This document shows, piece by piece, positions 965-42,190 of a stretch of 44,825 nucleotides of DNA (the stretch's first letter is position 1; every line of letters starts with the position of its first letter). Under the pieces are notes generated by a model that was not told the origin of the DNA, did not search any database, and saw only the letters and a program-made list of their open reading frames with translations. The stretch comes from Escherichia phage Gluttony_ev152. The position numbers and the translations under genes were made by a program. The stretch is from the sequence record NC_073087.1. The stretch is one strand, 5' to 3'.

Positions 965-994
965 ACTATAGTGCAACCAACCTATTGGTTGCAA
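965..994 (-). promoter_or_regulatory. sigma70-like promoter candidate, TTGCAA-N18-TATAGT (minus strand)
   Basis: Minus-strand -35 TTGCAA (989-994) and -10 TATAGT (965-970), 18-nt spacer ending in TTGGTTGCAC. Confidence 0.5.
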
Positions 995-1452
995 GTGAAT
1001 TTTGCAACGTTTATTGAGTAAATTTTCGGGACCAAATCACCACACGCCCGACGAATTGCCGCGATGTTCTTCGGACAGTCTTCAATGATGACCAGTTCCG
1101 ACACGTCCGCATAGCAGACCATTTTGAAAACGGCGCACGCCTTAAACTCAGGCGGCGGGGTGTCGTCCAGCATGTGGCGCATGAACAATCGACCTACGGG
1201 GAAGACCTCCAATTGCTCGGCGGTGGTGTCCCAACATTCGCGCTGCCGGTTGGTCAGATACGCGATCTCGAAGCCTTGCTCTTTGTACATGCGCAGCAGC
1301 GGCAGCATATCCATGTTCAGATCTTCGCGGACGTGCGCTTTGTGCCACTTCGCCCAGAAGGTTGATTTCGTTTTTATCCCCGGCACCAGGTCGGCACGCG
1401 CATCGCTTGAGCCGTTAATAACGCCATCCAAATCGCAAATCAGTAATTTCAT
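982..1452 (-). CDS. HAD-superfamily hydrolase/phosphatase-like protein
   Basis: N-terminal LICDLDGV (DxDGV-type HAD motif I) in 156-aa track ORF; co-oriented with replication module. Confidence 0.7.
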   Translation of the reverse strand: MKLLICDLDGVINGSSDARADLVPGIKTKSTFWAKWHKAHVREDLNMDMLPLLRMYKEQGFEIAYLTNRQRECWDTTAEQLEVFPVGRLFMRHMLDDTPPPEFKACAVFKMVCYADVSELVIIEDCPKNIAAIRRACGDLVPKIYSINVAKFTCNQ

Positions 1453-1673
1453 TTTAAACTCTCAATAAGGGTGTAACGGGCGCTTCGCGCAGTAAAGGAG
1501 TTGCACACGAAATGGCAACGCTGAGTCATGACAAGCCAACCGGTGAGGTCAAGGCCCAGGATGTATTCGGGGCGAGACGCGCGCACCACACGATTGCGTC
1601 GCGGGTCAATACCGTAGTCTTTTTGCATTTGGTCTACTACCGCGGGGTCGCGGTCAACGATTAAGATATTCAA
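1449..1673 (-). CDS. hypothetical protein (74 aa)
   Basis: Track ORF overlapping neighbours by a few nt in an operon-like arrangement; no motif recognised. Confidence 0.45.
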   Translation of the reverse strand: MNILIVDRDPAVVDQMQKDYGIDPRRNRVVRASRPEYILGLDLTGWLVMTQRCHFVCNSFTARSARYTLIESLK

Positions 1674-5363: not shown

Positions 5364-5582
5364 TTATTCCGCCTTTTTCCAGACTTCGGTTTCACTGTTC
5401 CAGTTCCTTTTTGTAGCGTCGTAGTTGGTGGCGTGTCCGATGTGCACACCGGTAGCCCGGAAGCTCTTAAATTTTTGCCAGCACACCGTCAACGGCAGCG
5501 GATCATTCATGCCCGCGATAAACCATACGCGATCGCCCGGTTTACATTCGCCCAGCTTGGTGAGTCGGTAATGTTCTTTCAT
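5364..5582 (-). CDS. hypothetical protein
   Basis: Track ORF 5364..5597 begins at a TTG; ATG at 5582 has GGGAGA 7 nt upstream. Confidence 0.45.
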   Translation of the reverse strand: MKEHYRLTKLGECKPGDRVWFIAGMNDPLPLTVCWQKFKSFRATGVHIGHATNYDATKRNWNSETEVWKKAE

Positions 5583-5625
5583 CGTCATGTCTCCCAAAAA
5601 TGGCGGGACAAGCCCGCCGTATTAA

Positions 5626-5799
5626 TTATTTTTGTTCTGCACGGTAGCGGCGCTGCCGTTCGCGCTCTTTCTTATTGCGGCACGATTTGCACTCTGCCCG
5701 ATACCCGTCTGGACTGCGCGCAGTCTTACCGGTGTATTTGTGGAACTGGGATAGCGGCTTTACACAGCCGCAATTACTACAACGTTTTTCTTCAATCAT
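5626..5799 (-). CDS. small zinc-ribbon protein
   Basis: CSNCGC ... CKSCRN (two CxxC pairs) in a 57-aa product starting at internal ATG with AGGA RBS. Confidence 0.45.
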   Translation of the reverse strand: MIEEKRCSNCGCVKPLSQFHKYTGKTARSPDGYRAECKSCRNKKERERQRRYRAEQK

Positions 5800-5839
5800 C
5801 TCTAAAATCCTCGATGTGGCTAACCGGCACACTATACCG

Positions 5840-6118
5840 CTATGCGACCAATTCAGCAACCAATAAATCGCAGTCGGATATGTTGTCGATAACGCGAACG
5901 TCAGCACCGCGGCGGGCCATTCGATCATGTTCACGTACCTGGTGCGGCTTAGGTTTTCCTCCGGGGCGCTTCACTTCGACGAACACTATTTTGCCGTTGA
6001 TGATAATAATCAGGTCGGGCGCACCCGCGCGCCCCTCCCATGCCAGTTTTCGGCAGAATCCGCCGACCTCTTTCACCCGTTTCATCAGGTGACTTTGAAT
6101 CTTGCCTTCTGGTGTCAT
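5840..6118 (-). CDS. VRR-NUC domain nuclease
   Basis: PDLIIIINGKIVFVEVKRPGG fits the PD-(D/E)XK VRR-NUC signature; ATG overlaps the polymerase stop (TAATG). Confidence 0.65.
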   Translation of the reverse strand: MTPEGKIQSHLMKRVKEVGGFCRKLAWEGRAGAPDLIIIINGKIVFVEVKRPGGKPKPHQVREHDRMARRGADVRVIDNISDCDLLVAELVA

Positions 6119-8409
6119 TACTTCCTGTACCTGTACATGATGTCGCCTTCGGCGGCAAGTGGGAAGCCCTTCGCCCAAATAGGCAGGTCGCACATCAGCG
6201 CGCAAAGCTCCTCGGTCGTGTAGTCGTCAGTATCCGGCACTTCGGTGATCAATTCATCATGCACCGACAGGACGATTTTATACCCCGCAGCTTCAACGCC
6301 AGGCATGGACCACGCGAGAATATCGCGACACAACGCCTGTACGATGTTCTCCGTCAGTTTGCCGCCGTAGGTATACTGGAATCCCCACTGGCGCGTCGTC
6401 TGATTCTCGCCCTGATATTTAATGCGTGTGCTGGTGCGCTTCTTGCCGGTGTCTTCGTCAATCTCGGTAGTGACAGACAGCGCGATGCCGGGGTAGCTCA
6501 TGATGCGCCCCGACGGCAACTCAATTTTCAACCACCACCCCGCGGCGTCCGGGTCGTCGCGCTCCTCGTCGAAGGTTGGGTCGTGCTTCGCCTTCGTACG
6601 GACAATCTTGAGCGCTTTTCTACCGTCCGGGCGAACGTTCGCGCCAGCCCAGTATGCTTTGCCAGGATTGCGGATTGCACACAACACCGCGTCCTCAAGC
6701 TCGGCCCAAAAGGCTACCGTCTTCGGGTGCGCCTCACGCCACATACGTTTGATTGCGTCACAAGTAAGCCATACGTTTTTCGGCAGTATGTATGTTGGGC
6801 GCTCGTCTTTCTTACCTGGCTTCGGCGGGCGTTTCGCTTCGTTAATGCGGGCGTACTCATAGCCGCGTTTCGCCGCCGCCCAAATGTGATCCGGGAACGT
6901 GCCTTTCATCACGTCCGCCATAGTGTAAAGGTCGAGGCCCAGGTTTTTAGCGAACTGCAAGAACGCCGCGACGCCGCCACCATAGCCCAGTCCCAATTCG
7001 CACGCCTTACCAATCTGGCGTAAGTCCTTGCGGTTGGCTTTAATGTAATCCGGGTCGAGGCCGAACATCTTACCGGCAGTCTCGCAATAGATATCGCGAC
7101 CGGCCTTAAAGACCATTAACGCTGTTTTCTCGCCAGCGATCCAGGCAAGGCCGCGCCCTTCCACGTTGGAGTAGTCAGCTACGACAAACTTCTTGCCCTT
7201 TGCAGGGATGATGCACCCGCGAACGGTCGAGGCTGTCAGCTTCGATATGTCATACGCCCAGTGCGCTTTCCCACGTAACAGGGAGTTGATTCCGTTGGTG
7301 AGCATGTGCGACCGGACCCAAAAAGCGACGTCGCTCTCGCCTTCGCGGCGCTTAATCTTCCCTTCGTGGTCGTCGCTGTACTCGCCGCGTGCCAGGTTTT
7401 GAGGTTGAAAGCCTTTACCGGCCCAGCGTAGCGTGCGCTTTGCCCCACCATACTGAAGACAACCACGGCGGCGACCATCGGCGGACAGGCCATTGACAAG
7501 CGGATTGTATTTAGTAGATGCCGTTGATGACGCACCGAGGCGCATTTCGATAAGCGCTTTGCCCTCGTCCGGGAAGTCCGGGTCTTCCAGTAGGTCGTTT
7601 AGCGTGGATTTCTGCGCGTTGTGTATCGTGAATGCTGGCGCAATATCACGCAGGATTGGCAGGAAGTCATTGCCGGTCAGCTTACCGCCAAACCGCTCCC
7701 AGGCTTCTTCCTTCAATTCTTCCTTATGCGCCTGCACCGCTTTGATCGCGGCGTTCGCCAGGTCAACGTCAACGTAGAAGCCGCGGTCGTTAATCAACTG
7801 GTCGATGAGCAGGATTTCATCTTCCTTTGGTGAGTTGCCCCAGTCCGGTATGCGCCAGTAGACTTCACGCATGGCAACAATATCCAGCGCGGCATAGCGC
7901 AAGAATTTGGCCCATTCTTCGGGGTGCGTCTCGCGTGTGTAGCGGCGGATTTTGTAGGTCTTAGGGGTGGGCTTACAGAATCGTTTAATCAGCGCCTTGC
8001 CTGCCTTATCCTTCGCGTGCTCTGCGTCAACGCCCAGCACCTGGCACTGCATATCGAGGCTACCGGGCAGCGCGTGGCGAAAGGCCATAATCATGGTGTC
8101 TTCGATCTGGCTTACCGGCAGGTCAATACCCCACTTCTCGCGAATAACCAGGCGGTCAAACAGTAGGCCGTTAGCCATCACGATTTTTGCTTTCTTGCGG
8201 GATACATGGCGGAGCGCTTTGCGCAGTTCACGCGGCATTGTGGGGGATTCAGTGCAATCCCATGTCTGCACGCGGCCCTCGTCGATGGCGTATGTGCAAA
8301 TCATAATCTCGGTGGTTGGGTGCTCTGCGTAGGCGTACGCCCCAACTTTCTTCAGGTCCACCCCGCTAAATGTCTCGGTGTCGAGAAACAGGCGTTCGAA
8401 GTCTTTCAT
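6118..8409 (-). CDS. DNA polymerase, family A (PolI-like) with 3'-5' exonuclease domain
   Basis: 763-aa ORF; N-terminal LFLDTETF exo motif; C-terminal SVHDELITEV polymerase motif; largest minus-strand gene. Confidence 0.9.
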   Translation of the reverse strand: MKDFERLFLDTETFSGVDLKKVGAYAYAEHPTTEIMICTYAIDEGRVQTWDCTESPTMPRELRKALRHVSRKKAKIVMANGLLFDRLVIREKWGIDLPVSQIEDTMIMAFRHALPGSLDMQCQVLGVDAEHAKDKAGKALIKRFCKPTPKTYKIRRYTRETHPEEWAKFLRYAALDIVAMREVYWRIPDWGNSPKEDEILLIDQLINDRGFYVDVDLANAAIKAVQAHKEELKEEAWERFGGKLTGNDFLPILRDIAPAFTIHNAQKSTLNDLLEDPDFPDEGKALIEMRLGASSTASTKYNPLVNGLSADGRRRGCLQYGGAKRTLRWAGKGFQPQNLARGEYSDDHEGKIKRREGESDVAFWVRSHMLTNGINSLLRGKAHWAYDISKLTASTVRGCIIPAKGKKFVVADYSNVEGRGLAWIAGEKTALMVFKAGRDIYCETAGKMFGLDPDYIKANRKDLRQIGKACELGLGYGGGVAAFLQFAKNLGLDLYTMADVMKGTFPDHIWAAAKRGYEYARINEAKRPPKPGKKDERPTYILPKNVWLTCDAIKRMWREAHPKTVAFWAELEDAVLCAIRNPGKAYWAGANVRPDGRKALKIVRTKAKHDPTFDEERDDPDAAGWWLKIELPSGRIMSYPGIALSVTTEIDEDTGKKRTSTRIKYQGENQTTRQWGFQYTYGGKLTENIVQALCRDILAWSMPGVEAAGYKIVLSVHDELITEVPDTDDYTTEELCALMCDLPIWAKGFPLAAEGDIMYRYRK

Positions 8410-12376: not shown

Positions 12377-12406
12377 ATGATAGATTGGTTGCAGGATGGG
12401 TGTCAA
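12377..12406 (-). promoter_or_regulatory. leftward promoter candidate, TTGACA-N18-TATCAT
   Basis: Consensus -35 and near-consensus -10 on minus strand, TGCAACCAAT in spacer; about 200 nt upstream of first leftward gene. Confidence 0.55.
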
Positions 12407-12583: not shown

Positions 12584-12913
12584 ATGAATGTAAACGACGC
12601 AATCGAAATGTTAACGAAGACTGTTTGCAGTGAGACAAGCCGGTCATGGGCATACACCGATGCCGTGGGGGCTGTGTTATTTGAAATCGAACGACTGCGG
12701 CTTACCGAAAAAGAATTGCGCGCCAGGCTGGAACTACTCAACGGTACAGCAGCAAGCAAGCTGCAAAAACACAATGAAGAAATGGAAGAATACAAAAAGC
12801 AGGTTATCCGTTTGCGCGCCGAGGGCAAATCTTGGGCGATGATTGCCGAGTTGACCGGAATTAATCAGAGCACAGTGCGCTCCTGGGTACGCAATAATAA
12901 AACTTCTAAGTAA
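12584..12913 (+). CDS. helix-turn-helix DNA-binding protein (putative regulator)
   Basis: C-terminal GKSWAMIAELTGINQSTVRSWV resembles resolvase/sigma-region-4-type HTH; first rightward gene after divergent promoter. Confidence 0.65.
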   Translation: MNVNDAIEMLTKTVCSETSRSWAYTDAVGAVLFEIERLRLTEKELRARLELLNGTAASKLQKHNEEMEEYKKQVIRLRAEGKSWAMIAELTGINQSTVRSWVRNNKTSK

Positions 12914-15510: not shown

Positions 15511-15665
15511 AATCCGGGGATTGCAAAATACACGGCAGCATGATGCGAATTGCGGTCGACGATGAACTAGGCAACCAATGCGAGTTGCATTATGCTGAGT
15601 GAAAAATGCGGTTTGCAGTCGCAGCAGATAGCGATCAACTTTTTCATGCGCGTGATTAATATTGG

Positions 15666-15694
15666 TTGCGCCCAGCCTGGCACCTTGCTATATT
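15666..15694 (+). promoter_or_regulatory. promoter candidate, TTGCGC-N17-TATATT
   Basis: Hexamers with 17-nt spacer; ATTGGTTGC motif overlapping -35 and again immediately after -10; leader TATATTGGTTGCACACCAACATGAGGAC nearly identical to the leader at 26033-26061 on the minus strand. Confidence 0.55.
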
Positions 15695-15722
15695 GGTTGC
15701 ACACCAACATGAGGACTGAACA

Positions 15723-16028
15723 ATGAAAGCAATTATCTGGAATTACGCAATGGCGATGGCGAAGCTGTACGAAGCAAAACACACAAACGGCAACGCAGAC
15801 GACGCGCGCCAGGCTGTCATCCTGGCCCAGCAGGGAATCATGAACGCGTTCGACGATATGTTTGCCAGCCTGGACGAACTGGAACCTCTGCGCGTGGCAA
15901 TCTGCGAATATGCTATGGCATTTGCCCGTGAACGCCTGGCGTATCGCTTCGGGATCGGCGAGACGGCAGTGACAAACGTTGCCCGGATTAAAGCCCAGCG
16001 TGAGCTATTCGCCCAGCTTGCGAAATAA
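15723..16028 (+). CDS. hypothetical protein (101 aa)
   Basis: Track ORF with GAGGAC RBS and upstream TTGCGC-N17-TATATT promoter. Confidence 0.55.
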   Translation: MKAIIWNYAMAMAKLYEAKHTNGNADDARQAVILAQQGIMNAFDDMFASLDELEPLRVAICEYAMAFARERLAYRFGIGETAVTNVARIKAQRELFAQLAK

Positions 16029-17312: not shown

Positions 17313-17603
17313 ATGGATAAGCTAAACGAGTGGTTATTCGCCCTCGCATGTCTGGCTGGCGGCTTCGTAGGCGCACGCATTCACGGCGAGGCTACGAAGG
17401 GGCCATTAAACTTCGTTTTATATATCGTGGTAGGCTTTCTGTGTGCCATATTTGGTGCGCCAGCTATTGCCGAGTGGGCTGGCTTATCTGGCGAGCGCAC
17501 TGTCGCCGGTTTGGGCTTCGTAACTGCAATCTTCTGGATGCCAATCGCCGACCGGATCAGGGAGACTATTGCGTCGTTCCGACTTCCGGGGGGTGCAAAA
17601 TGA
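17313..17603 (+). CDS. putative holin (multi-TM membrane protein)
   Basis: 96 aa with about 3 hydrophobic helices, immediately upstream of the endolysin. Confidence 0.5.
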   Translation: MDKLNEWLFALACLAGGFVGARIHGEATKGPLNFVLYIVVGFLCAIFGAPAIAEWAGLSGERTVAGLGFVTAIFWMPIADRIRETIASFRLPGGAK

Positions 17604-17845
17604 TTATCTCCGTCCTGTTGTTTGTTATCATAGGGGCTTCGTCCCTGTTTAACGTGTATGCGCCGTCCGTACAGGATGGCATTTTAGGCCGGGTGCTGTA
17701 TCTGTTAACGGCAATGGTCTGTATTATCGGATTGTTGCAAACAGGAGACGTATCTGACACCACCTGGACCGCGTTAATCTGGCTGTTTGCATTGCGCACG
17801 CTGCGTAATGCTGTTTTGAATGGGGTAAAACATGCGATTCAGTGA
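17600..17845 (+). CDS. putative holin/antiholin-like membrane protein
   Basis: In-frame ATG at 17600 (ATGA overlap with upstream gene) within track ORF 17330..17845; 81 aa with about 3 hydrophobic helices; overlaps endolysin start. Confidence 0.45.
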   Translation: MIISVLLFVIIGASSLFNVYAPSVQDGILGRVLYLLTAMVCIIGLLQTGDVSDTTWTALIWLFALRTLRNAVLNGVKHAIQ

Positions 17846-18323
17846 CAACGGTCTACGATTTACGGCAGCATGGGAGACGTTTAGCCCGGTGCCGTATTTC
17901 GCGACTAAGAAAGAGCAGGCCCGCGGCCTGTACACCTGGGGTTATGGTCACACTGGCACTAACCCGCCTCGAAGCATTACCCGCGAGGAAGCGCTGGAAC
18001 TGCTCAAGCGCGATGTGGCGTATGCGGAGGATTGGGTGAACAAATACGCACATCCGAGCATTAACCAGGCGCAATTCGACGCGCTGGTGGATCTGGTAAT
18101 CAACGCCGGTCCGGGTCCGATCGTACCGGATGACGTCTCGAACGACTTTGATGATGCGGTGCGACTGGGAGACTGGGAGAAGGTCCGTGCTATTCTGCCG
18201 CAGTTCCGCAAGCAAGGCGGGTCGGTGCTCTTAGGTCTGGTCCGTCGCGCAATTGGCAGACAGGCGTTGTTTGATGGTAAGCAGTGGGACGTTGCCGAGC
18301 GAATCGGGCGTAACGCAGCATAA
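17832..18323 (+). CDS. endolysin, phage lysozyme (GH24-like)
   Basis: AAWETFSPVPYF ... GLYTWGYGHTG matches the E-x8-D/T ... GYGHT core of T4/lambda-type lysozymes; no SAR-type hydrophobic N-terminus. Confidence 0.8.
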   Translation: MRFSDNGLRFTAAWETFSPVPYFATKKEQARGLYTWGYGHTGTNPPRSITREEALELLKRDVAYAEDWVNKYAHPSINQAQFDALVDLVINAGPGPIVPDDVSNDFDDAVRLGDWEKVRAILPQFRKQGGSVLLGLVRRAIGRQALFDGKQWDVAERIGRNAA

Positions 18324-18786: not shown

Positions 18787-18849
18787 TGCTTGACTTGCAA
18801 CCAACTATCAGACCATACTGCGACCAACCAACGAGAGGAGTAGTAAACT

Positions 18850-18930
18850 ATGGCACGTAATGATATTTGGGTATTGGCAATCTGGTCAGCCGCCGCATTT
18901 ATCGGTATGGTTATTTGCGAATTGCTATAA
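18850..18930 (+). CDS. small hydrophobic peptide (26 aa)
   Basis: Strong RBS GAGAGGAG 8 nt upstream of ATG; MARNDIWVLAIWSAAAFIGMVICELL; not in track. Confidence 0.3.
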   Translation: MARNDIWVLAIWSAAAFIGMVICELL

Positions 18931-18991
18931 CCAGCCGCAGTAGGGACCGTGGTATATTGTCCTCGGACCAATAACCAGGAAGTTAATTAAT

Positions 18992-23733: not shown

Positions 23734-24820
23734 TCAAGATATGGCGGATCGAATGATTCGCCGTCACATCTTCACCCAGCGCCTGAGCAATGACCAGGCG
23801 CGAAGGGTGCTGGCTATGTGGGAGAAGTTCCGGCCCGCTTTACTGGGTAAGCTGACCGAGTTACTTGATGGTAAAAAGTCCATGAGCAACAAGGCACTTA
23901 CCACACTTTTAACGCAACTCGACAAGACCGTCAAAACGGAACTGCGCACCGAGTTTAAGGCGCTGGCTGAAAGCCTTCAGGAGTTCGCCGACACCGAGGC
24001 TGATTATCTCGCCGACACATTAACGGCAGCGATCCAGCCAGCGGTCGCCGTACCAGCGGTTGAGGTGGTGAGCGTAGTGACGGGCGCGCAGATTGCAGCG
24101 ACGGCAATGAAAAACCCGTTCCAGGGGAACACCATGATGCAATGGCCTGATTCACTTTCCGAGTGGACCAGGACGCAGATCGGCAATCAGGTGCGCGCCG
24201 GATTCATCCAGGGCAAGCCAACGATGGAAATTATTGCGGACGTGAGGCGCGCGCTAGGCGGTCGTAGTGCGCAAGCAATCTCAAGCGTTGTTAAGTCCGC
24301 GGTCAACCACTATGCGGCGACCGCCCGCGAATTAATGGTAAAAGCTAATGACGATATTCTCGAAGGTCGCCAATGGTTGGCCACATTGGACACGCACACT
24401 TCTCCCATGTGCCAGCTACGCGACCGCCTGTTCTATCCGGTTGATGTTACTCCCGCGACAAAAGGGAAGCGCGGCGGGAAAGTGGTGGCTGGATCACAAT
24501 ATGGCGCTGGTCCTGGCAAGCTGCATTATTGCTGCCGTTCTACGGAGACGTGGAAAGTCAAAGGCATGGAAGATTGGCCCAGTGGTAAGCGTCCGGCACT
24601 GAAGGCTGACGCAGGCAGATTGCTGAGTGAGCAGGTCGACGCGCAGACTGATTTCTTCTCATGGGTGCAGCGCCAGCCGCGCCATATCCTGGAAGAATTA
24701 TATGGAGTGCAACGCGCCGACCAGATTATGCGCGGCATGAAAGTGCCGAAGATGTTCACCGATTCTGGCGAACTGATGACTATTGCACAGCTTAAAAACC
24801 GGGGGTTATGGCGTGATTAA
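23717..24820 (+). CDS. head morphogenesis protein (SPP1 gp7 / Mu F-like)
   Basis: 367 aa directly after portal, overlapping it; typical position and size of minor capsid/head morphogenesis protein. Confidence 0.7.
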   Translation: MAKTINQDMADRMIRRHIFTQRLSNDQARRVLAMWEKFRPALLGKLTELLDGKKSMSNKALTTLLTQLDKTVKTELRTEFKALAESLQEFADTEADYLADTLTAAIQPAVAVPAVEVVSVVTGAQIAATAMKNPFQGNTMMQWPDSLSEWTRTQIGNQVRAGFIQGKPTMEIIADVRRALGGRSAQAISSVVKSAVNHYAATARELMVKANDDILEGRQWLATLDTHTSPMCQLRDRLFYPVDVTPATKGKRGGKVVAGSQYGAGPGKLHYCCRSTETWKVKGMEDWPSGKRPALKADAGRLLSEQVDAQTDFFSWVQRQPRHILEELYGVQRADQIMRGMKVPKMFTDSGELMTIAQLKNRGLWRD

Positions 24821-25142
24821 ATATGCAGCGATTGGACTGGTTATCGGTCTGGCGGTAGGATTCTGGCTAGGTGACTCCTATCGCGCTGGCGTAGTGGCGG
24901 AGGCGGCGCAAGAAGCGCAAGCCCAAGCCCAACGGCAGCAAACTAAAGTAATCGAGCGCTCCGTGCAGGCAGAACAAGCCCGCGACGTGGAATACCGGAC
25001 TATCACAAAAGAGGTTGTTAAATATGTTACGCGCCCTAACCGCCCTGATTGTAGTTTTGACGCTGAGCGCGTGCGGATCAAGCAGCGTGCCGTTGATGCC
25101 GCTAACGGAGTCGGCACTGCGACCGCCGTGCAAGTTCGATAA
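24783..25142 (+). CDS. i-spanin (Rz-like)
   Basis: N-terminal TM helix AAIGLVIGLAVGFWL followed by QA-rich coiled-coil; completely contains the o-spanin ORF in another frame. Alternative start GTG 24813 with GGGGG RBS. Confidence 0.6.
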   Translation: MHSLKTGGYGVIKYAAIGLVIGLAVGFWLGDSYRAGVVAEAAQEAQAQAQRQQTKVIERSVQAEQARDVEYRTITKEVVKYVTRPNRPDCSFDAERVRIKQRAVDAANGVGTATAVQVR

Positions 25143-25254
25143 CCCGTCTGCGGACCCCGACGAAGATTTGATGATTGACGTGAAAAATATGGAATGCGGG
25201 GCGAAGCTGAGGGCGCAGGTGTTGGAGTTGCAGCAAATAATTAAGGGGCCGTAA
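25015..25254 (+). CDS. o-spanin (Rz1-like outer-membrane lipoprotein)
   Basis: Signal peptide with lipobox LTLSAC, Pro-rich mature part; embedded in +1 frame of i-spanin gene; AGAGG RBS. Confidence 0.6.
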   Translation: MLNMLRALTALIVVLTLSACGSSSVPLMPLTESALRPPCKFDNPSADPDEDLMIDVKNMECGAKLRAQVLELQQIIKGP

Positions 25255-25266
25255 TGGCCCCTTTTC
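25243..25266 (+). terminator. intrinsic terminator
   Basis: GGGGCCGTAATGGCCCC plus TTTT overlapping o-spanin stop. Confidence 0.6.
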
Positions 25267-25268
25267 CG

Positions 25269-26033
25269 TTAGCGAGGAATGCCGCAAATCTCGTTGAGTG
25301 TTTTCACATCCAGCGCCACCGCCGTGGATTTTGGCTTGTCCGGGTAAGGGATGAATTGCTCAACTTCAGGCCATGCCTTGATCAGCTTCTTATCGGTATT
25401 GTGCATATCCAGCACGCCGGTAACAGTTAGTTTGAACGCGTCATACTTAGCTCGCAACTCGCGTCGGGCCTTGTCGTTACGGTCCAGGCGCTTGCAGAAA
25501 TCATGATCCGCCGGAAAATCAGCACGGCAGCGGGGCTTATAGATCGGCAGCGCTTTCCCATCCTCGTCCAATTCGCACACAGAAGCCAGCATAACTTCTT
25601 CGTACCCAGGCACAATATCGCCGAGATCGGGAGACAGCTTATTCATGTATTTATATTCCCAGTATCCGCGATGTACGCGGTATCGGAGACCGTCACCGCT
25701 CAAGGACAAGGTGCGAACATTTCCTCCTGCGTTGATTTCGAAAGTGGCGTCGTAAACTCGGTCGATACCTTTTGGGCGGTCGTGGTTATAGTAATACGTC
25801 GCCTTGTTGGTGTAGACGCTTACGCCGTACATCTGCGACTTGTCGTCGTGGATTAACTGTATATGCTCGCGTAGCGCGGCGAACGTGCGAATGCCTTTTG
25901 GCATACAGTCCATCGTAATTGCGTACGCCAGGTCGCGAGAGTCCATCATGATGGATTTGGCTTCGGTCGCGATTTCGTGGTCGCGCAGGATGTTAGCCAG
26001 AATCTGGTTTTTAATGTCTTTCGTCAGTCTCAT
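25269..26033 (-). CDS. hypothetical protein, reverse-oriented moron candidate
   Basis: 254-aa product from internal ATG with GAGGA RBS; own minus-strand promoter TTGCAA-N18-TATATT (26056-26085); lies between rightward spanin terminator and rightward scaffold gene. Confidence 0.55.
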   Translation of the reverse strand: MRLTKDIKNQILANILRDHEIATEAKSIMMDSRDLAYAITMDCMPKGIRTFAALREHIQLIHDDKSQMYGVSVYTNKATYYYNHDRPKGIDRVYDATFEINAGGNVRTLSLSGDGLRYRVHRGYWEYKYMNKLSPDLGDIVPGYEEVMLASVCELDEDGKALPIYKPRCRADFPADHDFCKRLDRNDKARRELRAKYDAFKLTVTGVLDMHNTDKKLIKAWPEVEQFIPYPDKPKSTAVALDVKTLNEICGIPR

Positions 26034-26055
26034 TTGTGTGTCCTCATGGTTGGTG

Positions 26056-26085
26056 TGCAACCAATATAGTGCAACCAATATGCGG
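26056..26085 (-). promoter_or_regulatory. promoter candidate for reverse-oriented ORF, TTGCAA-N18-TATATT
   Basis: Minus-strand hexamers with TTGGTTGCAC abutting -10 and repeated after it; drives ORF 25269..26033. Confidence 0.55.
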
Positions 26086-26182
26086 ATTGCAAGCGAATTT
26101 TGCGATTATTTTTATCACTGATAATATTAGAAGCGTGAAGTCGAGCGGGAGGCCTGCTCTGCCACAATCCCAGGGGGATAGC

Positions 26183-26887
26183 ATGAAACTTACTAAAGCA
26201 GAATATGACGCGTTGCCGGAAGGTATGAAGGCGCTTTTTGTTGCCGATGGTGACGGGTATAAATCAACGTTCATGACCGCAGAAGAAGTACAGGCGGAAA
26301 TCAAGGGTCTGAAAGACAACAACGCGAAGCTGGTGAGCGAGAAGAAAGCAGAAGCCGAACGCCGCGCCGAAGCTGAGCGCCTTGCGAAAGAGAAAGAGGA
26401 AGCCGCCGCGCGCAAAAACGGCGACCTCGAAGCGATCGATAAGTCCTGGAAGGATAAGTTTGCGAAACACGAAGCAGACACATCGGGAAAAATCGAAGCC
26501 TACCGCAAGCAGATCCACGATCTAACCATCGGCAGCGCTGCCAAAGACCTGGCATCGAAGCTATTCGGTAAGAATGCGGGCATCATGCAACGCCACGTAA
26601 TGGACCGCCTCACTCTGGAAGACGGCGAAGACGGCAGCTTGAAAGTGCGTGTCTTGCAGGATGGCAAACCGTCAGCGCTGACTATGGAAGAGCTTGAAAA
26701 AGAGTTCCGTAATAACGCCGATTTTGCATCCGTCCTGGCTGGCACGCCAGCCGGTGGCGCGCCTAGCAAACCGACGCAGGTTGTCGAAGATGTGAAGTCG
26801 AAAATCACTATGGGCCACAGCTTCGGTATCACTGACCTTACGAAACAGGCAGGTGAAATCATCGCTAAGATGGGCGACGACGAGTAA
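26183..26887 (+). CDS. head scaffolding protein
   Basis: Internal ATG with GGGGG RBS; KAEAERRAEAERLAKEKEEAAARK coiled-coil-rich sequence; directly upstream of major capsid gene; terminator follows. Confidence 0.65.
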   Translation: MKLTKAEYDALPEGMKALFVADGDGYKSTFMTAEEVQAEIKGLKDNNAKLVSEKKAEAERRAEAERLAKEKEEAAARKNGDLEAIDKSWKDKFAKHEADTSGKIEAYRKQIHDLTIGSAAKDLASKLFGKNAGIMQRHVMDRLTLEDGEDGSLKVRVLQDGKPSALTMEELEKEFRNNADFASVLAGTPAGGAPSKPTQVVEDVKSKITMGHSFGITDLTKQAGEIIAKMGDDE

Positions 26888-26891
26888 GCCG

Positions 26892-26917
26892 ATTGCCCGC
26901 GAAAGCGGGCAATTTTG
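26892..26917 (+). terminator. intrinsic terminator
   Basis: TTGCCCGCGAAAGCGGGCAA plus TTTT after scaffold gene. Confidence 0.6.
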
Positions 26918-26984
26918 CGAGCGCGTAAATCTAAGGTAACATTAACGTCACTGGGCGAATGCTCACAACTCAAAGGATTTCGAT

Positions 26985-28085
26985 ATGTCTTTAACAGTGT
27001 TCCAGCGTAAACTCGTTACCGCGGTTACGCAAATGATCCCCGACAACCTGAACGTTTTCAACGCCGCCGCCAATGGCGCTGTTGTTCTCGGTACTGGTGA
27101 AGTGCTGAAGGATGTTATTGAGAAAATGTCCGTAGGCTTGATCGCCAACCTCGTTACCGACCGTAACGCCTACGCCCCTGTCGGCACTCCGGCAACCGCG
27201 AAAGTTCTGGCGCGTATGCTGACCAACTCGGTTAACCTTTCCGCAAAAGTGGGTCCGGTAGCAATCACTAAGGCTATGATGGCTAAGATCGAAACCAACG
27301 TTAACAGCGTTGCGGCTGAGATTGCGGCACAGGCTACTCAAGCGATTATGCTGCATTACCTGAAGGCTGGTATTGGCGCAAGTAAAGCGGCGATCGAAAG
27401 CAACGCAGCGGCAAAATACACCCAACCGGCGCGCGTTGACGGCGTTGGCGGTCGTACCTTCCCGACCCTGGCAGACTTCCCGCTGGCGGCATCCAAGTTC
27501 GGCGATCAGGCGTCTTTGATTAAATCCTGGTTTATGGACGGCGTTACCTGGGCAAACTTCATTGCGTACCAGGCACTCCCTTCCGCTGAACAGGTATTCG
27601 CAATTGGCGATCTACAGGTAATGGGTGATGGCCTGGGCCGTCGATTCATTATCTCCGATGCCGCTGCCGATGCTATGGGCGCTGGTAACATGCTGGGTCT
27701 GGTTCCTGGCGCGGTTGCAGTTACCACCAACGGCCTCGATATGCTGGCGCAGGAGAAAGGCGGTAACGAGAACATCGAACGCTGGTGGCAGGGCGAGTTC
27801 GACTTCAACGTGGCCGTTAAAGGCTACCGTCTGAAGGCGTCCGCTCGTACCCCGATCGAAGGTGTGCGCTCGTTCAAGCTGGACGATATCACCACTTCCG
27901 CTAACTGGGAACTGGACCAGGGCCAGGTAGACAACGCACCGGCAACCGTGCAGGATGTTGGCGCTGTGGGGGATGGCGATACTAAAGGCCGTCGTAAGAC
28001 CCAGGCCGCACAGGCAGTGCCTACCCGCCACATCAAGGAAACGGCTGGCGTACTGGTTACGCTGACTGCGACTACCGCGTCTTAA
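26985..28085 (+). CDS. major capsid protein
   Basis: 366 aa after scaffold gene; followed by strong intrinsic terminator (high-expression gene pattern). Confidence 0.8.
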   Translation: MSLTVFQRKLVTAVTQMIPDNLNVFNAAANGAVVLGTGEVLKDVIEKMSVGLIANLVTDRNAYAPVGTPATAKVLARMLTNSVNLSAKVGPVAITKAMMAKIETNVNSVAAEIAAQATQAIMLHYLKAGIGASKAAIESNAAAKYTQPARVDGVGGRTFPTLADFPLAASKFGDQASLIKSWFMDGVTWANFIAYQALPSAEQVFAIGDLQVMGDGLGRRFIISDAAADAMGAGNMLGLVPGAVAVTTNGLDMLAQEKGGNENIERWWQGEFDFNVAVKGYRLKASARTPIEGVRSFKLDDITTSANWELDQGQVDNAPATVQDVGAVGDGDTKGRRKTQAAQAVPTRHIKETAGVLVTLTATTAS

Positions 28086-40899: not shown

Positions 40900-40924
40900 A
40901 TGGGGCCAGATGGCCCCATTTTCA
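40900..40924 (+). terminator. putative terminator between convergent genes
   Basis: GGGGCCAGATGGCCCC followed by ATTTTC; lies between J (+) and minus-strand ORF end. Confidence 0.45.
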
Positions 40925-41887
40925 ATACATATTCGGGATGACGAGTAGCGGTGTTGGTACTGCAATATTTTTACTTGGCATCTGGAATTGCTGCCGTGAG
41001 TAGTTGCCGATGACGCGGTTTTTAGCGACGCGCACATTATTACCCGCCATGCGTATGCCGTTCATGCGGACGTGGTTATAGCCACCGTTGTTCTGAATCA
41101 GTGCGCCGGTGTATGAAAGCTGGATCAGGCTGTTTCCAATATTCTGGTCGCCCGTTCCGATGTTAATAGTGCGGTCATATACGAACGGCTTGTTCACCGT
41201 CGAGAACGTAACCTGATTCTGGTTATTCGTCATGGTGATTCCGGCCCCCGGAGTGGGTGGTGTGTTGTTGAATATCACCAAATCCATGTCCACCGAAGCC
41301 GCCACATCGTCGATGCCTCCATAGGACGCGTTGCGGACGATAATACTGCCGCCATCGAAGCCTACTGATACGTTGCCATCATCCCATCGGGCGAACGGAA
41401 CACCGCCAACCGGCAAGGCCATACTACCGTTGACGCGCACGCGCTGTGCGTATCGGCAGGTCATTAGCTTAGACACGTTGGATATGGCGGTGAAGTCCGT
41501 CGAGTTAGCCACCAGTAAACCTGCGTTGCGCGAACCAACCGGCAGCACTTCCATTATGACGCCCGCCCATTGTGGTAAACCAGAGTACGCGCCATACGCA
41601 TCCTCCCCGCGCAGGGTGATACCACTATTACCGTTGCGAGTAACCGACGTAACGTAAAACGGGTCGGGAATTACCAGGGTCTGGTCAAACACCTCAATCA
41701 CTTCTACCGGGCGAGTGAGCGCGACGATGACCTGCGACCCATCCGTAAGCGGGGTGTTAATGGTTAGCGTCTTGTTGGACTGTGCCCGCTGGTTAAAGCT
41801 GGTGCAGTATGACGGCGCGCGGAGTCCCGCGGTTATCTCCATGCGCGGCCTTCCGTCGTTATAGTCGATAAGTATTCCAGCGCCCAT
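40922..41887 (-). CDS. hypothetical Asn/Gly/Thr-rich protein (beta-helix-like)
   Basis: Reverse-oriented; starts right after the lipoprotein gene stop (ATG 41887 with GGGAG RBS, alternative GTG 41896); repeated N/G/T-rich segments; no signal peptide. Confidence 0.5.
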   Translation of the reverse strand: MGAGILIDYNDGRPRMEITAGLRAPSYCTSFNQRAQSNKTLTINTPLTDGSQVIVALTRPVEVIEVFDQTLVIPDPFYVTSVTRNGNSGITLRGEDAYGAYSGLPQWAGVIMEVLPVGSRNAGLLVANSTDFTAISNVSKLMTCRYAQRVRVNGSMALPVGGVPFARWDDGNVSVGFDGGSIIVRNASYGGIDDVAASVDMDLVIFNNTPPTPGAGITMTNNQNQVTFSTVNKPFVYDRTINIGTGDQNIGNSLIQLSYTGALIQNNGGYNHVRMNGIRMAGNNVRVAKNRVIGNYSRQQFQMPSKNIAVPTPLLVIPNMY

Positions 41888-41889
41888 TA

Positions 41890-42111
41890 TTACCACTCCC
41901 GTGATTTAACTGATACTGTGCCTGAGAAATTGCCGTCGCTATCTGAAGACAGCCCAGTGAATCGCATGTCTACATCTCCTGCCGGTACTTTTTGCCCGTC
42001 AACGTAGCGCAACATGCAGCTACCGTAAGCAACCGTAACGCAATCGCCATTGTTGCGTTCTACGGCGCAACCGGACAAAAGAACCGCACAAATCATAATT
42101 AAAGTTTTCAT
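41890..42111 (-). CDS. small outer-membrane lipoprotein (Cor/Llp-like superinfection-exclusion candidate)
   Basis: 73 aa from internal ATG with AGGGGA RBS; signal peptide MKTLIMICAVLLSGC with lipobox LSGC; reverse-oriented between J and tail fiber genes. Confidence 0.55.
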   Translation of the reverse strand: MKTLIMICAVLLSGCAVERNNGDCVTVAYGSCMLRYVDGQKVPAGDVDMRFTGLSSDSDGNFSGTVSVKSREW

Positions 42112-42190
42112 GGTATCATCCCCTATATTTGGTTGAGTTTTAGTATTACACCGCTCAACCAGGATTGCAACCAATTACGAGGATTTAGCT

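What the first reader, a model, noticed from the sequence alone, without database searches (positions are those of the whole stretch)
25269..26085. Reverse-oriented 254-aa gene with its own promoter inserted in the head-gene module (moron candidate)
It is the only minus-strand gene within the rightward packaging/head/tail block, sandwiched between the spanin terminator and the scaffold gene. It has a well-formed minus-strand promoter TTGCAA-N18-TATATT carrying two TTGGTTGCAC motifs and a GAGGA RBS. I recognise no family in the product (MRLTKDIKNQILANILRDHEIATEAK...). Independently transcribed inserts in structural modules often encode host-takeover, exclusion or anti-defence functions.
Basis: partly seen in the sequence, partly recalled or inferred. 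Interest (0 to 1): 0.55.

Follow-up and report, generated by a model that had tools for sequence, protein, structure and literature searches.

The report
Phage nmad5 accessory gene cassette
The backwards-facing gene in the head-gene block of this E. coli phage is nmad5, a known, dispensable accessory gene of unknown biochemistry that sits in a swappable slot with its own promoter and terminator, so the find is real but largely already described.

Summary
A 254-aa minus-strand gene (25269-26033) has a GAGGA ribosome-binding site, a TTGCAA-N18-TATATT promoter carrying two TTGGTTGCAC copies, and a strong bidirectional terminator shared with the spanin genes.

The product does belong to a known family. 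It is a full-length Nmad5 protein (Pfam PF18757, E 1.2e-57). The window is a Dhillonvirus, and the protein is 100% identical to a deposited phage protein.

A 2025 paper showed that Dhillonvirus nmad5 can be deleted, apparently cannot be cloned alone, and that K216E (published as K296E) lets the phage escape the Tmn defence, while deletion does not.

New here:
- The promoter and terminator form a constant slot with variable cargo: nmad5 alone, an extra gene plus nmad5, nmad5 plus a mini beta-clamp-like gene, that gene alone, or a deletion remnant.
- Outgroup phages have no such unit.
- The promoter motif recurs at about 11 sites across the genome.
- A confident structure model shows no enzyme fold, and the genome lacks the base-hypermodification genes that gave the family its name.

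"Moron-like accessory cassette" is supported. "DNA modification enzyme" is not. The real function is still unknown; I favour a protein-binding effector.

The parts
25269..26033 (-). nmad5 coding sequence, 254 aa, stop TAA at 25269-25271
   Evidence: ORF and translation. Pfam PF18757 Nmad5 at 195.7 bits against a cut-off of 27, full length. phrog_1965. 100% identical to a protein deposited for Escherichia phage Gluttony_ev152.
26041..26045 (-). Shine-Dalgarno GAGGA, 7 nt before the ATG
   Evidence: Read from the sequence. Invariant in 12 relatives.
26063..26092 (-). Sigma-70-type promoter: -35 TTGCAA (26092-26087), 18-nt spacer, -10 TATATT (26068-26063)
   Evidence: Scan. Conserved in L013, rolling, TheodorHerzl, Teewinot and SM_S22, and kept upstream of other cargo genes. 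Transcription itself is not shown.
26050..26078 (-). Two tandem copies of TTGGTTGCAC (26078-26069 and 26064-26055) flanking the -10. The downstream copy forms the dyad TTGGT-TGCAC-ACCAA. Operator-like element.
   Evidence: The 9-mer TTGGTTGCA occurs 11 times in the window. With one mismatch allowed in the 10-mer there are 15 sites against 3.6 expected, and 0 of 100 shuffles reach 15. Positions are conserved in Bas84. It is not a significant RNA hairpin.
25243..25263 (.). Bidirectional intrinsic terminator shared by the rightward spanin genes and leftward nmad5
   Evidence: It is duplicated on both sides of the extra beta-clamp-like gene in phage rolling, so it marks the cassette boundary.
26093..26184 (.). 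Rest of the divergent intergenic region up to the scaffold ATG at 26185. It must hold the promoter for the scaffold and head genes. Contains the inverted repeat 26107-26129.
   Evidence: 84% identical in L013. The promoter assignment is inference only.
15689..15722 (+). Second copy of the same -10/leader/RBS element (TATATTGGTTGCACACCAACATGAGGAC) in front of the gene starting at 15723. Indicates co-regulation with nmad5.
12584..12913 (+). 109-aa protein with a sigma-70 region-4-like helix-turn-helix. Candidate binder of the TTGGTTGCA motif (speculative).
   Evidence: Pfam PF13384 2.3e-7 and PF08281 2e-6. A motif copy lies at 12385 just upstream.

Best explanation
The region is a self-contained accessory expression cassette inserted backwards into the head-gene module of a Dhillonvirus. 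It consists of a host-type promoter carrying the phage's recurrent TTGGTTGCA operator-like motif, a cargo gene, and a bidirectional terminator.

In this phage the cargo is nmad5. Its 29-kDa product has an almost invariant helical N- and C-terminal core and a fast-evolving central alpha/beta insert.

I infer that Nmad5 is not an enzyme here. I think it is a binding protein made independently of the late genes. It would dock through its conserved C-terminal module (T-x-K-K-L-x-x-x-W-P-E ... L-N-x-x-x-G-[LI]-P) onto a conserved host or phage DNA-metabolism or defence-related partner, and so modulate host takeover or immunity.

**Shown:** gene identity, cassette architecture, cargo variability, absence of the hypermodification pathway, absence of a recognisable catalytic fold.
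**From the literature:** dispensable, apparently toxic on cloning, K216E gives escape from Tmn while deletion does not.
**Inferred:** timing of expression, operator function of the motif, binding rather than catalysis, identity of the partner.
For: **Family and identity.**

**Cassette signals.**

**Constant slot, variable cargo.**
- The same promoter and terminator flank nmad5 alone in the window, Bas84, SECphi18 and L010, L011, L013 and L014.
- They flank a 109-aa, 135-aa, 53-aa or 172-aa gene plus nmad5 in L004-L009 and L012.
- They flank nmad5 plus a beta-clamp-like gene, with a duplicated terminator, in rolling.
- They flank the beta-clamp-like gene alone in TheodorHerzl, HK578 and SO-1.
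- They flank an nmad5 deletion remnant in Teewinot.

**Insertion relative to outgroups.**

**Evolutionary pattern.**
- nmad5 diverges faster than its flanks: 67% against 78-84% nucleotide identity.
- Variability is concentrated in residues 51-90 and 111-120.
- The C-terminal 22 codons show 14 synonymous and 1 non-synonymous difference against an allele that is 37% identical overall and lies in an unrelated contig.
- K216 lies inside the most conserved family motif.

**No sign of an enzyme.**
- The AlphaFold model is confident (pLDDT 89.8).
- Foldseek finds nothing in the PDB.
- BFVD returns only other Nmad5 proteins.
- No acidic, histidine or cysteine constellation is family-invariant; the near-invariant residues are T213, L217, W221, P222, E223, L246 and N247.

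**No partner pathway.** The window has no aGPT-Pplase1 or 2, 5-hmdU kinase, radical-SAM, PLP enzyme or hydroxymethylase.

**Contexts of homologs.** They lie in early or accessory regions without modification genes in lambdoid HK542 (directly after N), Vibrio Athena1 and D270, Serratia Susuwatari and contig L026.

**Published genetics.** PMC11846954.
Against: - No direct evidence of transcription, timing or binding exists. The promoter consensus match alone is at chance level.
- In Yuavirus and Vojvodinavirus, nmad5 sits inside the thymidine-hypermodification cluster, so a role tied to modified DNA is real for at least one lineage.
- A novel catalytic fold cannot be excluded by a failed fold search.
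- Toxicity was reported only as a failure to clone. The fragment cloned under the 334-aa annotation would include the native promoter, so the result may reflect uncontrolled expression.
- No partner gene or host target was identified.
Confidence: 0.55

Rival explanations
1. Nmad5 is, as its name and the 2025 paper state, a DNA-modification enzyme or an obligatory cofactor of one. Under this view the Dhillonvirus genome carries an Nmad5-dependent base modification that Tmn senses.
For: - The family was named for its association with base-modification genes.
- In Pseudomonas Yuavirus PAC4, SN1 and Bordetella FP1 it lies between aGPT-Pplase1 and the hydroxymethylase.
- The window encodes DNA methyltransferases that could in principle be partners.
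Against: - None of the hypermodification enzymes has a homolog in the window.
- No enzyme fold or invariant catalytic residues were found.
- Most lineages sampled carry nmad5 without any modification genes.
- Deleting nmad5 does not relieve Tmn sensitivity, so Tmn does not sense an Nmad5-dependent mark.
- The nmad5-less phages TheodorHerzl and Teewinot keep the same methyltransferases.
- As a group, Dhillonviruses are described as less resistant to restriction-modification systems than the 7-deazaguanine-modified Queuovirinae.
Confidence: 0.15
2. Nmad5 is a dedicated anti-defence protein that inhibits a specific host immune system. On this view the slot is an anti-defence hot spot, and K216E simply extends Nmad5's inhibitory range to Tmn.
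For: - The slot is variable, has its own promoter, and holds several unrelated small cargo genes.
- nmad5 evolves faster than its flanks and has a hypervariable patch.
- K216E behaves as a gain of function, because deletion does not allow escape.
- In lambdoid phages the homolog lies just after N, where I recall lambda carrying ral and sieB (position; the lambda comparison is from memory, not tested).
Against: - No target system is known, and there is no PADLOC hit.
- No phenotype of the deletion on any defence system has been reported.
- The family spans phages of Escherichia, Pseudomonas, Vibrio, Bordetella and Serratia with a very conserved C-terminal motif. That fits a conserved housekeeping target better than a patchy defence system.
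- Toxicity in defence-poor cloning strains argues for an essential host target.
Confidence: 0.2
3. Nmad5 is a transcription or DNA-binding regulator that acts on the divergent intergenic region, for example controlling the scaffold and head promoter, or that is itself the factor recognising TTGGTTGCA.
For: - It is transcribed divergently from the head genes, from a region rich in dyads.
- It is mildly basic, with pI 8.1.
Against: - No helix-turn-helix or other DNA-binding fold was detected.
- Homologs occur in unrelated phages that lack this motif context.
- The gene is dispensable and is naturally deleted or replaced while the motif and promoter persist.
- A better candidate regulator exists at 12584-12913.
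Confidence: 0.07
4. It is a virion structural or assembly protein that happens to be encoded on the opposite strand.
For: Only its position between the head-morphogenesis and scaffold genes.
Against: - It has no similarity to structural proteins.
- Homologs lie in early operons of other phages.
- It is absent or replaced in viable relatives, and the deletion is viable.
Confidence: 0.03

Closest known systems
nmad5 of Dhillonvirus phages SM_S22 and SM_A8 (Yamashita et al. 2025, Commun Biol, PMC11846954)
   Same: It is the same gene at the same position. The SM_S22 region matches the window at about 91% nucleotide identity. K216, the site of the Tmn-escape substitution, is present in the window protein within DKKLIKAWP.
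   Different: That paper calls it a DNA modification enzyme on the strength of the family name, and numbers SM_S22 residues from a 334-aa annotation. That annotation runs through the promoter and antisense into the scaffold gene.
Nmad5 (Pfam PF18757) in the thymidine-hypermodification clusters of Pseudomonas Yuavirus (M6, SN1, PAC4) and Bordetella FP1
   Same: Same family. PAC4 Nmad5 hits window 25275-25529 at E 6e-11. The N-terminal RLT motif and the C-terminal WPE...LNxxxG[LI]P motif are shared.
   Different: Those proteins are about 186-190 aa and are flanked by aGPT-Pplase1 and a hydroxymethylase. The window protein is 254 aa with an expanded central insert, stands alone in the head module, and its genome lacks that pathway.
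Morons of lambdoid phages (promoter-gene-terminator units inserted between conserved genes; concept recalled from the HK97/HK022 comparisons, not retrieved here)
   Same: It has its own promoter and terminator, is inserted between genes that are adjacent in outgroups, is polymorphic for presence, absence and cargo among close relatives, and is dispensable. The annotators of Sodalis phage SO-1 already flagged the gene in this slot as a possible moron.
   Different: As I recall them, classical morons are expressed from prophages and benefit the lysogen. Dhillonviruses are treated in the cited studies as plaque-forming, lytic phages, though I did not check the lifestyle directly. If so, the unit must act during lytic infection. 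The promoter also carries a phage-wide motif rather than being foreign to the genome.
Mini beta-clamp-like protein (phrog_3007; weak PF02767/TIGR00663 match) of HK578, TheodorHerzl and SO-1
   Same: It occupies exactly the same slot, behind the same promoter and in front of the same terminator.
   Different: It is an unrelated 172-aa protein resembling one domain of the DnaN sliding clamp. Its co-occurrence with nmad5 in rolling, in CHD5UKE2-like phages and in L005 shows the two are not simple alternatives.

Membership tests
Nmad5 (Pfam PF18757, phrog_1965) | Full-length match to the family profile above the curated threshold | tested here: met
   195.7 bits against a cut-off of 27, residues 1-253 on profile positions 1-206/206. 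phrog_1965 at E 8e-62.
Nmad5 (Pfam PF18757, phrog_1965) | Family sequence signatures: N-terminal x-R-L-T, central G-G, T-x-K-K-L-x-x-x-W-P-E, C-terminal L-N-x-x-x-G-[LI]-P | tested here: met
   All are present in the window protein. T213, L217, W221, P222, E223, L246 and N247 are at least 90% conserved across 138 diverse members.
Nmad5 (Pfam PF18757, phrog_1965) | Genomic association with base-modification genes, the basis of the family's name | tested here: not met
   tblastn of the PAC4 hypermodification enzymes against the window gives no hit better than E 0.2, apart from Nmad5 itself. This is a contextual feature, not a sequence criterion, so family membership stands.
Moron / independently transcribed accessory cassette | Own promoter upstream of the gene | tested here: inconclusive
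   A sigma-70-like promoter is found and strongly conserved, and is retained with different cargo. No transcript data are available.
Moron / independently transcribed accessory cassette | Own terminator downstream | tested here: met
   Hairpin 25243-25263 followed by a T-rich tail, -15.9 kcal/mol, z -3.2 on the minus strand. It is duplicated when a second cargo gene is added.
Moron / independently transcribed accessory cassette | Inserted between genes that are adjacent in related phages | tested here: met
   Klebsiella vB_KPLY1 has head-morphogenesis 5454-6572 followed by scaffold 6605-7306 with a 32-bp gap. Providencia PSTCR7lys has no reverse gene there. Note that the Dhillonvirus insertion also includes the spanin genes.
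Moron / independently transcribed accessory cassette | Presence/absence or cargo polymorphism among close relatives | tested here: met
   Among 57 full-length rows of a spread sample, about 27 have nmad5 only, about 27 are longer (extra genes), and 6 are shorter or replaced. Individual cases were resolved.
Moron / independently transcribed accessory cassette | Expression from a prophage with benefit to the lysogen | not tested
   Dhillonviruses are treated in the cited studies as lytic, plaque-forming phages. The feature probably does not apply, so "moron-like" is the safer term.
DNA base-modifying enzymes | Recognisable catalytic fold or invariant catalytic residues | tested here: not met
DNA base-modifying enzymes | A modified base in virion DNA that depends on the gene | not testable with these tools
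   This needs nucleoside LC-MS/MS or SMRT/nanopore data for wild-type and delta-nmad5 phage.
Known anti-phage defence components (PADLOC) | Match to a defence-system protein model | tested here: not met
   No PADLOC family at E up to 1.
Virion structural / assembly proteins | Sequence or fold similarity to capsid, scaffold, portal or tail proteins | tested here: not met
   None was found in Pfam, PHROGs, PDB or BFVD.

The most novel reading that the evidence does not exclude
Nmad5 may be misnamed. On this reading it is not a nucleotide-modification factor but a widespread phage effector. Its invariant helical core and C-terminal peptide (TAVALDVKTLNEICGIPR in enterobacterial phages) would dock onto a conserved bacterial DNA-replication or repair or immune component, and its hypervariable central insert would be under arms-race selection.

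The Dhillonvirus slot, which alternatively carries a one-domain mimic of the DnaN sliding clamp, would then be a dedicated hot spot for host replication- or defence-interfering genes, driven by a phage-wide operator and regulator circuit.
Probability: 0.3. Interest if true: 0.6.

Novelty: already known. Interest (0 to 1): 0.35.

Why it matters
nmad5 is one of the few phage genes tied by genetics to the poorly understood Tmn (KAP NTPase) defence. The phage-therapy literature already proposes editing it. That literature treats it as a DNA-modification enzyme, which the evidence here does not support for Dhillonviruses.

If Nmad5 is a binding effector sitting in a swappable promoter-terminator slot, three things follow:
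- The interpretation of Tmn sensing changes.
- The correct residue numbering is K216, not K296.
- The slot becomes a natural, tolerated site for inserting payload genes into these phages.

The recurrent TTGGTTGCA motif and the sigma-region-4-like protein offer a first handle on Dhillonvirus gene regulation. I found no transcript map for the genus in one literature search.

Tried and rejected
- **Sequence search of solved structures.** Both the single protein and the 138-sequence profile gave nothing below E 0.3.
- **First AlphaFold run.** With 8 close sequences the model was poor (pLDDT 55.7). It was replaced by the deep-alignment model.
- **Rfam.** No RNA family in 24500-26700.
- **5'-UTR stabilising hairpin.** Rejected: z -0.43 at nmad5 and no hairpin at the 15696 copy.
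- **Ksap1.** This known Dhillonvirus trigger of KpAvs2 was considered and excluded. It is a 74-aa gene between the methyltransferase and phosphatase genes, elsewhere in the genome.
- **Co-lost partner gene.** Comparing the window with two nmad5-less genomes showed only the receptor-binding locus and a short region after the endolysin gene (18796-18942, not examined further) differing consistently. With n=2 this is uninformative.
- **Degenerate-pattern locus search with the deep alignment.** It failed because no stretch was conserved enough.
- **Literature.**
  - Iyer et al. 2013 could not be retrieved.
  - One search on aGPT-Pplase/Nmad terms was swamped by C. elegans NMAD-1 papers.
  - The DefensePredictor, OLD and daunorubicin papers mention NMAD domains or Dhillonviruses but say nothing about this gene.
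- **Sigma-54 reading of the motif.** Considered and rejected on spacing.
Full report
**What is there.** The window is a complete or near-complete Dhillonvirus-type E. coli siphophage genome.
- The 1.2 kb around the finding match 153 phage records, nearly all Escherichia or Shigella phages of that genus, at 80-99% identity.
- On the minus strand an ORF runs from the ATG at 26033 to the TAA at 25269-25271 and encodes 254 residues beginning MRLTKDIKNQ.
- GAGGA (26041-26045) lies 7 nt upstream of the ATG.
- The scan finds TTGCAA-N18-TATATT at 26092-26063.
- Two exact copies of TTGGTTGCAC lie at 26069-26078 and 26055-26064.
- A G+C-rich hairpin at 25243-25263, directly after the stop codon, folds at -15.9 kcal/mol on the minus strand and -15.4 on the plus strand (z -3.2 and -2.5). 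It therefore serves both nmad5 and the convergent spanin genes.

**Is the promoter more than chance?** The hexamer match alone is not: one site was found against 1.9 expected in shuffles. Conservation is what counts.
- In metagenomic relative L013, Nmad5 is only 63% identical in protein and 67% in DNA.
  - The 100 nt upstream of its ATG are 84% identical.
  - That stretch keeps TTGCAT-N17-TATATT and both motif copies.
- The same promoter is kept in phages where a different gene follows it.
- The -10, leader and ribosome-binding-site segment TATATTGGTTGCACACCAAC(C)ATGAGGAC recurs almost exactly at 15689-15720 on the plus strand, in front of the gene at 15723.

**The motif is genome-wide.**
- TTGGTTGCA occurs 11 times exactly. 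With one mismatch allowed in the 10-mer there are 15 sites against 3.6 +/- 1.8 expected, and no shuffle reaches 15.
- Most sites are intergenic, and several are paired:
  - an inverted pair at 971/985;
  - a tandem pair at 2880/2897;
  - two copies at 15662/15693;
  - a tandem pair at 26055/26069.
- Single copies lie in the early divergent region (12385) and upstream of the second reverse-oriented gene pair in the tail block (42165).
- At three sites the motif directly abuts a -10-like hexamer. At others its TTGCAN part sits where a -35 would be.
- The same set of positions carries the motif in phage Bas84.
- The dyad TTGGT-TGCAC-ACCAA is not a significant RNA hairpin, so I read it as a DNA operator or promoter element.
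- A 109-aa protein encoded at 12584-12913 has a helix-turn-helix of the sigma-70 region-4 type. It is a reasonable but untested candidate for the factor that binds the motif.

**Identity of the product.**
- It scores 195.7 bits against a threshold of 27, and it matches phrog_1965, a family of unknown function.
- It is 100% identical to a protein deposited for Escherichia phage Gluttony_ev152.
- An exhaustive profile search finds 371 family representatives at 50% clustering. Among the 150 best listed, most complete ones are 170-250 residues and none carries an additional domain.
- In a 138-sequence alignment the positions conserved in at least 90% of members are T213, L217, W221, P222, E223, L246 and N247. 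The consensus is x-R-L-T at the N terminus, G-G in the middle, and T-x-K-K-L-x-x-x-W-P-E ... L-N-x-x-x-G-L-P at the C terminus.

**What is already published.** Yamashita et al. 2025 (PMC11846954) worked on Dhillonviruses SM_S22 and SM_A8.
- Spontaneous escape from the Tmn defence mapped to one substitution in nmad5: K216E in SM_A8 and K296E in SM_S22.
- Reverting the substitution restored sensitivity, and engineering it in gave resistance.
- Deleting nmad5 gave a viable phage that was still sensitive to Tmn.
- Cloning of nmad5 failed, which the authors attributed to toxicity.
- They call the protein a DNA modification enzyme by citing the 2013 computational paper that named the family.

I could not retrieve that 2013 paper.

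The window protein has K216 in the sequence D-K-K-L-I-K-A-W-P, inside the most conserved motif of the family.

The 80-residue numbering difference is an annotation artefact. The 334-aa SM_S22 CDS starts far upstream, reads through the promoter, and is antisense to the start of the scaffold gene. A fragment cloned on that annotation would carry the native promoter, which may bear on the reported toxicity.

**The slot is constant and the cargo varies.** Comparing relatives gives the main new result.
- A spread sample of 60 of the 157 records that match window 24300-27300 contains 57 rows where the full 3-kb region can be sized.
  - About 27 are the same length as the window.
  - About 27 are 175-930 bp longer.
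  - Six are shorter.
- Inspection shows these states:
  - nmad5 alone: the window, Bas84, SECphi18, L010, L011, L013, L014.
  - An extra gene between the promoter and nmad5, separated from it by a GGGGCGAAAGCCCC stem-loop.
    - The extra gene is a 109-aa protein (phrog_24635) in L004, L006 and L007, and a 135-aa protein in L008 and L012.
    - It is a 53-aa protein in L009 and a 172-aa protein in L005.
  - nmad5 followed by the 172-aa gene, with the terminator hairpin present after each gene: rolling.
  - The 172-aa gene alone, behind the identical promoter: TheodorHerzl, SO-1, and by alignment length HK578.
  - A remnant in which roughly the first 30-35 codons of nmad5 are fused to its last few codons, with the promoter intact: Teewinot.
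  - Truncated copies in SM_S24 and JL1.
- The 172-aa protein weakly resembles one domain of the DnaN sliding clamp (PF02767 E 2.6e-5 to 7e-4, below the Pfam threshold; TIGR00663 E 2.4e-5; phrog_3007).
- The nearest outgroups by portal protein have the head-morphogenesis gene followed directly by the scaffold gene, with no reverse unit. These are Providencia PSTCR7lys (47% identity) and Klebsiella vB_KPLY1 (40%).

The block is therefore an insertion into an otherwise contiguous head module. The promoter and terminator act as fixed ends between which genes are exchanged, added or lost. This meets the structural definition of a moron, and the annotators of SO-1 had already written "possible moron gene product" on the gene in this slot. 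Intact nmad5 is nevertheless the usual resident: 145 phage records have at least 80% protein coverage, out of about 157 that match the region.

**How the gene evolves.**
- Between the window and L013, nmad5 is 67% identical in DNA. The promoter, the scaffold gene and the head-morphogenesis gene are 84% identical, and the o-spanin gene is 78%.
- Among 37 Dhillonvirus alleles, variation is concentrated in residues 51-90 and 111-120. Residues 1-20 and 181-254 hardly vary, and 241-254 do not vary at all.
- An allele only 37% identical overall sits in an unrelated contig, among small same-strand genes. It has the same last 18 residues as the window protein. Over the last 22 codons there are 14 synonymous differences and 1 non-synonymous one.

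That is strong purifying selection on a short C-terminal peptide next to a fast-changing centre. It is the pattern expected of a protein with a fixed docking surface and a contested surface.

**Structure.** With the deep alignment, AlphaFold gives a confident model (mean pLDDT 89.8, pTM 0.82).
- It has three N-terminal helices and a small beta-sheet with flanking short helices. This region is the expanded and variable part.
- A 32-residue helix (178-209) follows, then two short helices carrying K216 and W221-P222-E223.
- A lower-confidence linker then leads to a terminal helix at 243-250.
- Foldseek finds nothing in the PDB (best E 1.7).
- The viral structure library returns only other Nmad5 proteins, from phages of Escherichia, Edwardsiella, Vibrio and an alphaproteobacterium.

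No catalytic fold or invariant catalytic constellation is apparent.

**Does the name fit?**
- The association with base modification is real in Mesyanzhinovviridae. In PAC4, SN1 and FP1, nmad5 lies between aGPT-Pplase1 and the pyrimidine hydroxymethylase.
- None of those enzymes has a homolog in the window.
- In the other lineages I inspected the gene stands among early or accessory genes without modification enzymes:
  - lambdoid HK542, immediately after the antiterminator N in the leftward early operon;
  - Vibrio Athena1, before replication gene O;
  - Vibrio D270 and Serratia Susuwatari, within runs of small unknown genes;
  - contig L026.
- TheodorHerzl and Teewinot, which lack nmad5, keep the same methyltransferases and core genes.
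- Because deletion of nmad5 does not free the phage from Tmn, Tmn is not reading an Nmad5-dependent mark. K216E behaves as a change of function.

**Most likely mechanism.**
- I conclude with good confidence that this is a moron-like accessory cassette whose resident gene is nmad5.
- I conclude with moderate confidence that it is transcribed independently of the late genes, under the same control as the other TTGGTTGCA promoters.
- For the protein itself I favour a non-catalytic binding role, in which the conserved N- and C-terminal core engages a conserved host or phage DNA-metabolism or immunity component. Four observations point that way:
  - the lack of an enzyme fold;
  - the selection pattern;
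  - the gain-of-function genetics at K216;
  - the reported toxicity.
- This step is inference. The rivals remain open in decreasing order of likelihood: true modification cofactor, dedicated anti-defence inhibitor, regulator.

**Novelty and score.** The gene, its family, its position in Dhillonviruses and its link to Tmn are already public, so the finding is "already known" as an entity.
- the slot architecture with exchangeable cargo;
- the phage-wide promoter motif and its candidate regulator;
- the K296/K216 annotation issue;
- the evidence against an enzymatic role.

I score interest at 0.35. The gene is a genuine unknown with a defence phenotype, but it would not surprise a phage specialist.

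Noticed in passing
window 971-994, 2880-2906, 12385-12394, 15662-15702, 18795-18804, 26055-26078, 42165-42174: TTGGTTGCA(N) is a phage-wide recurrent motif: 11 exact 9-mers, and 15 sites with one mismatch against 3.6 expected. It sits mostly in intergenic promoter-like positions, often in tandem or inverted pairs, and the same positions carry it in phage Bas84. It is probably the operator or promoter signature of a regulatory circuit; I did not find a published description of it.
   Followed up: partly
window 12584-12913 (+): A 109-aa protein with a sigma-70 region-4-like helix-turn-helix (PF08281, PF13384). It is the first gene of the helicase-primase operon in the early divergent region and is annotated "transposase" in Bas84. 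It is a candidate regulator for the TTGGTTGCA motif.
   Followed up: partly
window 40922-42174 (-): A second reverse-oriented unit in the structural block, comprising a DUF6453 protein (324 aa) and a phage lipoprotein-family protein (73 aa), lies between the J-like tail-tip gene and the lateral tail fibre gene. It has a motif copy upstream at 42165. It sits where the BASEL paper places the variable receptor-binding locus (downstream of gpJ), and it differs in TheodorHerzl and Teewinot.
   Followed up: partly
L018:1173-1691 (TheodorHerzl), L019:1172-1684 (rolling), L005:5359-5919: A 172-aa protein resembling a single domain of the DnaN sliding clamp occupies the nmad5 slot in some Dhillonviruses. 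It occurs alone, upstream of nmad5, or downstream of it. PHROGs labels it "RusA-like resolvase", which looks like a mislabel.
   Followed up: partly
L003:3170-4174 (SM_S22 CDS0006): The published 334-aa nmad5 annotation of SM_S22 includes 80 spurious N-terminal residues. These read through the promoter and are antisense to the scaffold gene. The Tmn-escape residue K296 is K216 of the real 254-aa protein.
   Followed up: yes
window 24813-25254 (+): The i-spanin and embedded o-spanin genes lie between the head-morphogenesis gene and the nmad5 cassette, about 6 kb from the holin and endolysin genes (about 17313-18323). Outgroups vB_KPLY1 and PSTCR7lys have no spanins at this junction, so the spanins appear to have arrived there together with the reverse cassette or next to it.
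   Followed up: partly
L004:5960-5990 and equivalents in L005-L008 and L012: A conserved GGGGCGAAAGCCCC stem-loop (GAAA tetraloop) lies between the extra upstream cargo gene and the nmad5 ribosome-binding site in two-gene versions of the cassette. It may be an RNA processing or stability element, or a recombination joint.
   Followed up: no
L015:4695-5318 (HK542_033); Stx1a/Stx2a-converting phages (H49-H54, H57-H58): Lambdoid phages carry an Nmad5-family gene directly after N in the leftward early operon. In the Stx-converting phage records listed, the matching region has no annotated feature.
   Followed up: partly
window about 1452-1654 (-): By position, between the phosphatase and methyltransferase genes, this should hold the homolog of Ksap1, the 74-aa protein that activates the Klebsiella Avs2 defence in Dhillonvirus SECphi18 (PMC11564622). 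I did not examine it further.
   Followed up: no
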